A stretch of DNA of 48,685 bases, taken from a virus (lineage: Duplodnaviria > Heunggongvirae > Uroviricota > Caudoviricetes). Position numbers and translations under genes: made by a program. Below the pieces are notes generated by a model. It was not told the origin of the DNA. It made no database searches and saw only the letters and a program-made list of their open reading frames with translations. This document shows, piece by piece, positions 45,139 to 45,203 of this stretch (position 1 is the stretch's first letter; every line of letters begins with the position of its first letter). Where the stretch lies: the IMG/VR virus record IMGVR_UViG_2541047926_000004, positions 1 through 48,685 of that record; one strand, given 5' to 3'.

Positions 45139-45203
45139 GGACCGGTCTCGAAAACCGGAGTAGGGGCAACTCTACCGGGGTTCAAATCCCCCTCTCTCCG
45201 CCA
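45139..45203 (+). other. 3' fragment of tRNA-Ser (anticodon CGA; serU-like), lacking acceptor 5' strand and D-arm
   Basis: Anticodon arm CCGGT-CTCGAAA-ACCGG, long variable arm, T-arm GGGGTTCAAATCCCC, acceptor 3' strand CTCTCC-G-CCA; upstream sequence does not supply the 5' half. Confidence 0.55.

What the first reader, a model, noticed from the sequence alone, without database searches (positions are those of the whole stretch)
45139..45203. 3' fragment of tRNA-Ser (serU-like) embedded in the prophage right arm
A 65-nt stretch reproduces the anticodon arm (anticodon CGA), long variable arm, T-arm and acceptor 3' strand of a class II tRNA-Ser, but the 5' acceptor strand and D-arm are absent. 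Such 3' tRNA fragments are the usual footprint of an integrase attachment site. Yet this prophage is bounded by thrW repeats and no second integrase is nearby. The right arm may therefore be chimeric, acquired from an element that once integrated at serU, and the fragment could still act as a secondary att site.
Basis: partly seen in the sequence, partly recalled or inferred. Interest (0 to 1): 0.5.

Follow-up and report, generated by a model that had tools for sequence, protein, structure and literature searches.

The report
Fossil serU attachment site in prophage
The half-tRNA is the leftover right-end junction (attR) of a phage that once sat at the serU tRNA gene, still attached to 278 bases of bacterial chromosome it carried away, and it now rides as an apparently inert scar next to an acid-resistance regulator gene in phages that integrate elsewhere.

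Summary
Window 45139-45203 equals nucleotides 25-90 of E. coli serU, apart from one G missing from the T-stem. No complete tRNA is present, and the prophage is bounded by a perfect 47-nt thrW repeat.

The fragment is more than a stray att core. It is a complete translocated attR (P-O-B'):
- **Left side (44128-45138):** the native right end (GIY-YIG gene and P arm) of lambdoid prophages that sit at serU in other strains, e.g. PM4.
- **Core (45139-45205):** their 68-nt attL/attR identity block.
- **Right side (45206-45481):** genuine chromosomal serU-zinT spacer, 97-99.5% identical to about 5400 E. coli genomes.

Chromosomal homology stops at one illegitimate joint, TCAATA|CCCGGAGG (45481|45482). 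There it meets a truncated IS630-family end, then an AraC gene (probably patE) and an IS3-family remnant.

The identical joint occurs in O157:H7 thrW prophages and in lambda-attB phages (ev099, PhiR70_1, by alignment; mEp332 by BLAST extent), so it arose once and then spread by mosaic exchange. About 10% of complete E. coli genomes carry the block.

The best reading is capture of host flank across attR from a serU-resident prophage, as in lambda-bio formation. No cognate integrase is in the window, so activity as a secondary att site is untested. This is ordinary in kind, but an unusually clean example.

The parts
1369..1444 (+). Intact thrW (tRNA-Thr, CGT). Its 3' part (1399-1445) is the attL core of the resident prophage.
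   Evidence: ARAGORN, Rfam tRNA 71.8 bits, 47-nt repeat D2
1459..2622 (-). Tyrosine integrase of the resident prophage (thrW specificity). It is not the cognate enzyme of the serU fossil.
   Evidence: ORF list. Only 31% identity over 58 aa to the integrase of the serU-resident PM4 prophage. The adjacent attP arm matches SfI/SfII/SfV/P22 attP.
43538..44128 (+). Pin-type serine invertase of the tail-fibre inversion segment. Homology to the serU-resident PM4 prophage begins at its 3' end (44128).
   Evidence: (annotated pinE in identical DNA)
44189..44962 (-). LEM-3-like GIY-YIG domain gene, the last gene of the native right end of PM4-type serU prophages.
   Evidence: RefSeq annotation of 100% identical DNA. 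The same gene sits next to attR/zinT in PM4. 97.4% identity.
44963..45138 (+). P arm of the fossil serU attR (phage-derived side).
   Evidence: Contiguous and 97% identical with the sequence left of attR in prophages sitting at serU. Unrelated to the chromosome upstream of serU.
45139..45205 (+). One G is missing from the T-stem G5 run.
   Evidence: The PM4 attL/attR identity block is 68 nt, GGACCGG...GCCACT. Alignment. Chance control.
45206..45481 (+). B' arm: captured chromosomal serU-zinT intergenic DNA (278 bp counted from the end of the tRNA at 45204).
   Evidence: Contiguous with intact serU in about 5400 of 5426 genomes at 97-99.5% identity. The alignment shows the chromosome continuing ATTGAGC... 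towards zinT where the window diverges.
45482..45537 (+). Internally truncated 3' end of an IS630-family element. Its left edge (45481|45482) is the illegitimate joint with host DNA.
   Evidence: 98% match to the 3' end of an annotated IS630-family transposase pseudogene that extends further upstream in that record (H129, 31). The joint is identical in window, L001, O157, ev099 and PhiR70_1.
45787..46530 (+). AraC-family regulator (247 aa), probably PatE, the cargo gene travelling with the fossil.
   Evidence: Annotated AraC family. 98% identical to the O157:H7 thrW-prophage copy. PatE = z0321 on OI-8 of EDL933 (PMC10877973); the equation with z0321 is inferred from position. Promoter-like site at 45724-45753.
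46572..46799 (-). IS3-family (IS2 InsD-like) transposase remnant. The block shared with lambda-attB phages ends at about 46782-46785.
46895..47019 (+). P arm of the functional thrW attP/attR of the resident prophage.
   Evidence: 97% identity to the annotated attP regions of SfI, SfII, SfIV and SfV; 82% to P22
47020..47066 (+). attR core of the resident prophage (3' 47 nt of thrW).
   Evidence: Perfect direct repeat with 1399-1445

Best explanation
The stretch is the core of a fossil attR site of a serU-integrating lambdoid phage, now carried inside phages that integrate elsewhere.

Shown:
- A phage like the one resident at serU in strain PM4 has the order serU-attL, int ... J, stf, tfa, GIY-YIG, attR, zinT.
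- The window contains that phage's right end: the GIY-YIG gene, the P arm, the 68-nt core (the 3' two-thirds of serU), and then 278 bp of the bacterial chromosome that normally lies between serU and zinT.
- The chromosomal DNA stops at a non-homologous joint inside an IS630-family element. This is followed by an AraC gene (probably patE), an IS3 remnant, and then the prophage's real, working thrW attP arm and core.

Inferred:
- An ancestral prophage at serU left the chromosome by illegitimate recombination rather than by Int/Xis, as lambda-bio transducing phages do. One breakpoint lay 278 bp outside attR and the other inside phage- or IS-borne DNA.
- The hybrid attR and a sliver of host DNA thereby became part of the phage's non-essential region, between the tail-fibre genes and the integration module.
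- Because the joint is identical everywhere, this happened once.
- The scar and the adjacent AraC gene were then passed by ordinary mosaic recombination into phages with thrW-type and lambda-type integration modules. At some point a second type of serU P arm was joined to it.

Today it most likely does nothing on its own. It cannot make a tRNA and has no cognate integrase here. It does leave a 345-bp patch of near-identity to the chromosomal serU locus.
For: - **Fragment and flank:** the fragment equals serU nt 25-90. The downstream 278 bp are contiguous with intact serU in about 5400 of 5426 complete E. coli genomes at 97-99.5% identity (E around 1e-179), and homology ends at window 45481.
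- **Six-way alignment:** it compares a prophage-free chromosome, two native serU attR sites (KU052038 SerU-LTIIb, MEI003), the phages ev099 and PhiR70_1, O157:H7 Xuzhou21 and the window. The chromosome and native attR sites continue ATTGAGC... towards zinT. All carriers of the block switch at the same base to CCCGGAGG....
- **Native right end:** 5 genomes cover at least 80% of a query joining the window's GIY-YIG/P-arm side to the uninterrupted chromosomal flank. Three cover 100% at 96-97%.
- **PM4:** it holds a complete 46-kb lambdoid prophage between serU and zinT, with a 68-nt attL/attR identity block starting GGACCGG, exactly as at 45139. Window 44128-45481 is 97.4% identical to it.
- **Free phages:** sequenced phage genomes carry the block between the tail-fibre genes and attP/int. 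ev099 and PhiR70_1 are lambda-attB phages, as shown by colinearity with the CT30 prophage abutting ybhB-bioA.
- **Not native at serU:** the AraC block was never seen there. 0 of 5426 genomes have intact serU directly followed by it. 0 have it within about 1.5 kb of the zinT-side flank. 0 have mtfA-serU within about 3.6 kb upstream of it.
- **Truncated IS:** the IS630 piece is internally truncated at the joint.
- **No cognate enzyme:** the window integrase is unrelated in specificity class to the PM4 serU integrase.
Against: - The event itself cannot be observed. No extant progenitor was found, meaning a serU prophage or chromosome with the IS630-AraC block in the predicted place.
- A gene-conversion patch between co-resident prophages, or later deletions next to an IS, could give the same end product.
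- Two different P arms are joined to the same B' block. This needs an extra recombination step that I can only infer.
- 'Inert' is an inference from missing parts, not a test.
- The equation AraC = PatE rests on position in OI-8, not on a sequence labelled z0321.
Confidence: 0.8

Rival explanations
1. Patch transfer without aberrant excision. A thrW- or lambda-att prophage acquired 'GIY-YIG, attR, 278 bp' from a co-resident serU prophage by double recombination (gene conversion). One crossover lay in shared tail-fibre or pin genes. The other lay in an IS630-family copy present both in the chromosome downstream of serU and in the recipient prophage. The IS was later mostly deleted.
For: An IS630-family remnant sits exactly at the joint. 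Right-arm modules are clearly exchanged between unrelated phages: siphovirus-type window, myovirus-type AR_452 and the MS 69-1 record.
Against: The joint is inside the IS, not at an IS end, so a simple IS insertion 278 bp downstream of serU does not explain it. The listed rows (the genomes sampled there) show no IS630-family element at that spot in the serU-zinT spacer. This rival needs more steps than a single illegitimate excision.
Confidence: 0.15
2. The fragment is a live secondary attachment site. It would be maintained because serU-specific integrases of co-infecting phages use it to integrate into, or swap right arms with, thrW and lambda-att prophages.
For: The whole 68-nt identity block, including the symmetric anticodon stem-loop, is present. 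By established knowledge of tRNA-targeting tyrosine integrases (recalled, not tested), that stem-loop is a typical crossover location. Two different serU-type P arms are joined to the same B'-AraC block exactly at the left edge of the core. The block is common, in 542 of 5426 genomes.
Against: There is no cognate integrase in the window. The site is attR-type and lacks P'. This lineage has a 1-nt deletion in the core, and the O157 copy differs at the left edge, so the sequence is drifting rather than conserved. The P-arm swap is equally explained by RecA/Red recombination within the 345 bp of shared O-B' sequence. No nested prophage at the fossil was seen.
Confidence: 0.1
3. The stretch is a degraded phage-encoded tRNA gene, or a chance or convergent tRNA-like sequence, unrelated to integration.
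For: Lambdoid phages often carry tRNA genes. A weak tRNA-Sec covariance hit covers the stretch.
Against: The stretch is identical to host serU, not to phage tRNAs. It is followed by 278 bp of the host's own serU downstream spacer. It starts exactly where native serU attL/attR identity starts. 0 of 100 shuffles match.
Confidence: 0.01

Closest known systems
Native attR of serU-integrated lambdoid prophages (e.g. the SerU-LTIIb prophage KU052038, or the prophage between serU and zinT in E. coli PM4, NZ_CP074001)
   Same: Same core, the same P arm as PM4 with the same GIY-YIG terminal gene, and the same first 278 bp of host flank.
   Different: It is not at the serU locus. It lies 1.8 kb inside the right end of a thrW prophage. 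The flank is cut at 278 bp and joined to IS and AraC DNA. No serU-type integrase accompanies it.
Lambda-bio / lambda-gal specialised transducing phages formed by aberrant excision (textbook knowledge, not tested here)
   Same: It retains a hybrid att site (P-O-B') plus contiguous host DNA from one side of the prophage. It ends at a novel non-homologous joint, and sits in the non-essential region next to the integration module.
   Different: Only 278 bp of non-coding host DNA survive. The genome later gained a different, functional att/int module (thrW-type or lambda-type). The event is ancient and fixed in many phage lineages rather than a laboratory variant.
patE-bearing right end of prophage CP-933H/Sp1 (O-island 8) at thrW in E. 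coli O157:H7
   Same: Same module order: tail-fibre inversion segment, pinE, GIY-YIG, serU fossil, AraC, IS3 remnant. It is 97.2% identical over window 43493-46785. The AraC proteins are 98% identical.
   Different: The O157 copy keeps the G5 run but has GGGTCGG instead of GGACCGG at the left edge of the core. It has a longer IS3 remnant, and the O157 prophage is heavily deleted.
Multiple or degenerate direct repeats (pseudo-att sites) in composite tRNA-linked genomic islands
   Same: A 3' tRNA fragment marks a former integration boundary.
   Different: Those repeats derive from the same tRNA as the island's own att site and arise by tandem integration. Here the fragment comes from a different tRNA (serU inside a thrW element) and travels with the phage genome, including in free virions.

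Membership tests
Functional tRNA-Ser gene | Complete cloverleaf: 5' acceptor strand, D arm, anticodon arm, variable arm, T arm, 3' acceptor strand | tested here: not met
   ARAGORN reports only thrW. There is no Rfam tRNA hit at gathering score. The upstream sequence is unrelated to serU nt 1-24. The T stem has lost one G.
attR (P-O-B') of a serU-integrating lambdoid phage | Core identical to the attL/attR identity block of resident serU prophages | tested here: met
   The PM4 identity block is 68 nt, GGACCGG...GCCACT. Window 45139-45205 matches it apart from a 1-nt deletion.
attR (P-O-B') of a serU-integrating lambdoid phage | Phage-derived P arm and terminal phage genes on one side | tested here: met
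   Window 44128-45138 is about 97% identical to the right end of the PM4 serU prophage. Five genomes show this arm joined to the uninterrupted chromosome.
attR (P-O-B') of a serU-integrating lambdoid phage | Host chromosomal flank (B') on the other side, contiguous with serU in prophage-free genomes | tested here: met
   278 bp at 97-99.5% identity to the serU-zinT spacer in about 5400 genomes.
attR (P-O-B') of a serU-integrating lambdoid phage | Located at the chromosomal serU locus, with the partner attL and cognate int at the other prophage end | tested here: not met
   It lies inside a thrW-bounded prophage. The flank breaks after 278 bp. The window Int is not of the serU type. It is therefore filed as a translocated fossil, not an active attR.
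Product of aberrant (lambda-bio-type) prophage excision | Hybrid att site plus contiguous host DNA from one side only, ending at a non-homologous novel joint | tested here: met
   The single joint TCAATA|CCCGGAGG is shared by all aligned carriers. The partner sequence is the interior of an IS630-family element.
Product of aberrant (lambda-bio-type) prophage excision | Identifiable progenitor arrangement, or direct observation of the excision | tested here: inconclusive
   Three designed searches of 5426 complete genomes found no progenitor. The event cannot be replayed with these tools.
Functional secondary attachment site | Cognate integrase available, and evidence of site-specific recombination at the site | tested here: not met
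   No serU-type integrase is in the window. The second half of the feature, recombination at the site, was not assayed and no nested prophage was seen. Two P arms on one B' block are compatible with site-specific recombination but equally with homologous recombination.

The most novel reading that the evidence does not exclude
The fossil may not be dead. As a portable copy of the serU core plus 278 bp of chromosomal homology, it could let serU-specific integrases (or RecA/Red) recombine thrW and lambda-att prophages with serU-resident prophages or with the serU locus. That would explain why two different serU-type P arms are fused to the same B'-AraC block. It would make the scar the vehicle that spreads the adjacent patE-like acid-resistance/LEE regulator among phages of different integration specificity, and a potential source of thrW-serU chromosomal rearrangements.
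Probability: 0.12. Interest if true: 0.5.

Novelty: new member of a known kind. Interest (0 to 1): 0.3.

Why it matters
It has long been proposed that cargo genes next to phage att sites were picked up by imprecise excision. Usually no junction survives to show it. Here the junction does survive: a hybrid attR from one tRNA locus (serU), a measurable sliver of host chromosome, and a single illegitimate joint.

The scar sits directly beside an AraC regulator that is probably PatE, which controls acid resistance and LEE genes in O157:H7. It is present in roughly a tenth of complete E. coli genomes and in isolated phages with two other integration specificities.

This gives a dated, traceable marker for how one regulatory cargo module moved between phage lineages. 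It is also a practical warning for prophage-boundary and tRNA-pseudogene annotation, because a serU fragment inside a thrW prophage is not a second prophage boundary. It does not reveal a new mechanism.

Tried and rejected
1. **Complete tRNA on re-examination.** Rejected.
2. **The fragment as the phage's own attP.** Rejected. The sequence to its right is the host B' arm, not the P' arm seen after attL in PM4.
3. **The AraC upstream region as a displaced P' arm, which would make the 334 bp an insertion into an attP.** This was prompted by a shared 11-mer, CTAGTTATGTT. The local alignment score was 24, against a shuffle mean of 20.6 and maximum of 28, so this is chance.
4. **The AraC block as native chromosome next to serU.**
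   - 0 of 5426 genomes have intact serU directly followed by it.
   - 0 have it within about 1.5 kb of the zinT-side flank.
   - 0 have mtfA-serU within about 3.6 kb upstream of it; this used a padded query to widen the joining distance.
   - These are negative results within complete E. coli genomes only.
5. **A regulatory RNA or terminator role for the fragment.** No terminator-like site was found. The fold is no better than shuffles (z = 0.23).
6. **Literature.** No paper in the searchable library describes a serU fragment in CP-933H/Sp1 or in these phages. The primary PatE paper (PMC3416394) is not held, and cluster names give only 'AraC family'. The PatE assignment therefore rests on the review PMC10877973 plus position.

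Full report
**Observation**

Window 45139-45203 reads GGACCGGTCTCGAAAACCGGAGTAGGGGCAACTCTACCGGGGTTCAAATCCCCCTCTCTCCGCCA. I compared it with the annotated 90-nt tRNA-Ser (serU) of a prophage-free E. coli chromosome (L005). It equals nucleotides 25-90: the anticodon stem-loop with CGA, the long variable arm, the T arm and the 3' acceptor strand with CCA. One G is missing from the G5 run of the T stem.

The first 42 nt occur once in the window and in none of 100 shuffles at up to 3 mismatches. ARAGORN finds only thrW at 1369-1444. Rfam finds no tRNA here at gathering score. In permissive mode only a sub-threshold tRNA-Sec hit appears. The bases upstream are not the 5' acceptor strand or D arm.

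The prophage is indeed bounded by a perfect 47-nt thrW repeat (1399-1445 and 47020-47066), with its integrase at 1459-2622(-).

**What surrounds it**

The decisive result is that homology to the bacterial chromosome does not stop at the end of the tRNA. I used a query made of the serU 5' part plus window 45139-46800. It matches intact serU and its downstream spacer in essentially all of the 5426 complete E. coli genomes at 97-99.5% identity, but only as far as window 45481.

So 278 bp after the tRNA end are genuine serU-zinT intergenic DNA. In prophage-free genomes the order is mtfA, serU, spacer, zinT.

A multiple alignment compared:
- the prophage-free chromosome;
- two native serU-prophage right junctions (KU052038 SerU-LTIIb; MEI003);
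- the phages ev099 and PhiR70_1;
- the O157:H7 Xuzhou21 thrW prophage;
- the window.

In the chromosome and the native junctions the sequence continues ...GGGGTCAATA ATTGAGC... towards zinT. The window, the 100%-identical strain AR_452, O157, ev099 and PhiR70_1 all switch at the very same base to CCCGGAGGCAAACATGG....

That 56-bp piece (45482-45537) is the 3' end of an IS630-family element. It extends further upstream in another record, so here it is truncated internally at the joint (H129, 31). After it come:
- an AT-rich AraC-family gene (45787-46530);
- an IS3/IS2-type transposase remnant (46572-46799);
- from about 46895, the P arm and core of a thrW attP, 97% identical to the annotated attP of the Shigella phages SfI, SfII, SfIV and SfV.

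**The left side**

I then joined the window's left flank (GIY-YIG gene, spacer and fragment) to the uninterrupted chromosomal flank. This query finds genomes where exactly that arrangement exists: three at 100% coverage (96-97% identity), and five at 80% coverage or more.

In strain PM4 this is the right end of a complete lambdoid prophage lying between serU and zinT. The order is serU (attL), three cargo genes, int, a DUF4224 Xis-like gene... terminase ... J, lom, stf, tfa, GIY-YIG, attR, zinT.

The PM4 attL/attR identity block is 68 nt, GGACCGG...GCCACT. After attL the sequence is a different P' arm, so the 278 bp are host DNA, not part of attP. Window 44128-45481 is 97.4% identical to PM4, starting right after the pin gene.

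The window therefore contains a whole attR: P arm (44963-45138), core O (45139-45205) and B' arm (45206-45481), translocated into a thrW prophage. The window's integrase shares only 31% identity over 58 aa with the PM4 serU integrase.

**Distribution**

| Feature | Count or identity |
|---|---|
| Block fragment-flank-IS630'-AraC-IS3' at 80% coverage or more | 542 of 5426 genomes |
| GIY-YIG-type left side joined to it | 412 genomes |
| Module 43493-47066 shared with the AR_452 thrW prophage (different, myovirus-type virion genes) | 98.5% |
| Same module in a 64-kb circular record of strain MS 69-1 | 97.9% |
| Window 43493-46785 in the O157:H7 thrW prophage | 97.2% |

The phage records ev099, PhiR70_1 and mEp332 carry the block from 45143 or 45145 to 46782 at 98.4-98.7%. 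For ev099 and PhiR70_1, which I examined, it lies between the tail-fibre genes and the end of the record or the int gene.

ev099 and PhiR70_1 are colinear with a prophage abutting ybhB-bioA in strain CT30. They are therefore lambda-attB phages. In CT30 an IS1 has removed the fossil.

In these lambda-att phages the P arm to the left of the core is a different one. It matches the P arm of the SerU-LTIIb and MEI003 serU prophages, not the GIY-YIG type. So two serU-type P arms are fused to one and the same B'-IS630'-AraC block.

**Mechanism**

Shown: an attR of a serU phage, with 278 bp of host flank and one illegitimate joint, sits in phages that use other att sites.

Inferred: a serU-resident prophage left the chromosome by illegitimate recombination, with one break 278 bp beyond attR. 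This is how lambda-bio phages arise (textbook knowledge). Because the joint is identical in all carriers, it happened once.

The AraC block is most simply phage- or IS-borne DNA at the other breakpoint. I never found it as native neighbour of serU:
- 0 of 5426 genomes have intact serU directly followed by it;
- 0 have it within about 1.5 kb of the zinT-side flank;
- 0 have mtfA-serU within about 3.6 kb upstream of it.

The scar was subsequently combined with thrW-type and lambda-type att/int modules, and with a second P arm, by the usual mosaic recombination of lambdoid phages. The 345 bp of shared O-B' sequence are ample for RecA/Red exchange.

A rival route is a double-crossover patch using an IS630 copy as the right-hand homology. 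It cannot be excluded, but it needs more steps, and the joint is inside the IS rather than at its end.

**Function today**

The fragment cannot give a tRNA. I found no terminator-like site, and no fold better than shuffles. The only promoter-like site (45724-45753) belongs to the AraC gene.

The core is drifting. This lineage has the G deletion, and O157 reads GGGTCGG for GGACCGG at the left edge.

The anticodon stem-loop is intact. From what I recall of tRNA-targeting tyrosine integrases, that is a typical crossover place, so use by a co-resident serU-type integrase is conceivable. It is untested, and I give it low probability.

**The neighbour**

The AraC protein is 98% identical to the one in the O157:H7 thrW prophage. 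A review places PatE, an AraC-like activator of acid resistance and repressor of LEE genes, at z0321 on O-island 8 of EDL933 (PMC10877973). I infer from position that this is the same gene. The primary paper was not available, and database names say only 'AraC family'.

**Comparison and novelty**

The kind is known: relic att sites, and host DNA captured by imprecise excision. Imprecise excision of a prophage that packages adjacent host DNA is documented (e.g. PhiAP1.1; review PMC13492144). The idea that cargo genes next to att sites were acquired this way is a long-standing proposal that I recall rather than tested.

I found no paper in the searchable library describing this particular serU scar, which is not proof of absence. 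I class it as a new member of a known kind.

It is of modest interest as an unusually clean, widespread and datable example lying next to a studied virulence and acid-resistance regulator. It is also an annotation caveat: a serU fragment inside a thrW prophage is not a prophage boundary.

Noticed in passing
window 16729-16925 (+): Full-length Rfam match to the sRNA family STnc100 (84.5 bits, gathering score 47), inside the prophage's early or regulatory region.
   Followed up: no
window 10785-10901: Four copies of a 22-nt palindrome-containing repeat (TTACCCGAATCAGGTAAGAAAA), spaced 23-48 nt apart, inside ORF 10344-11363. They look like replication-origin iterons within a lambda O-type initiator gene.
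   Followed up: no
window 42042-44128: Tail-fibre inversion cassette. It has oppositely oriented tail-fibre C-terminal and assembly ORFs (42042-42485 +, 42457-43050 -, 43050-43547 -) next to a Pin serine invertase (43538-44128). The same cassette is in O157 Sp1/CP-933H and in myovirus-type thrW prophages.
   Followed up: partly
L011 (NZ_CP146678.1, E. coli MS 69-1 'plasmid unnamed3', 64,057 bp circular): A record deposited as a plasmid carries phage baseplate and tail-fibre genes plus the same pin, GIY-YIG, serU-fossil, AraC, IS3' module. The chromosome of the same strain has it too. It may be an excised or replicating prophage form, or an assembly artefact.
   Followed up: partly
L007 12000-12015 (O157:H7 Xuzhou21) versus window 45135-45143: The left edge of the core is polymorphic among otherwise ~97% identical copies: GATTGGACCGG in the window and PM4, GATCGGGTCGG in O157. 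That is three changes within 6 nt, right at the P-arm/core boundary.
   Followed up: no
one search hits H121-H124 (query 76-367, equivalent to window 45190-45481): A second class of serU-linked repeats in E. coli genomes starts only about 14 nt before the end of the tRNA. This implies another family of elements that uses a much shorter serU core.
   Followed up: no
window 47067-48685: Immediately beyond the thrW attR lie an AAA-ATPase ORF (47530-48396) and an IS1 copy (48392-48685, 100% identical to IS1A in PM4). So another island or remnant follows the prophage. In AR_452 and O157 a different, P4-like integrase element occupies this position.
   Followed up: no
L008 2524-4775 (PM4 serU prophage): Three hypothetical cargo genes lie between attL (serU) and the integrase gene of the native serU prophage. 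This shows the attL-int interval of this phage family can hold cargo.
   Followed up: no
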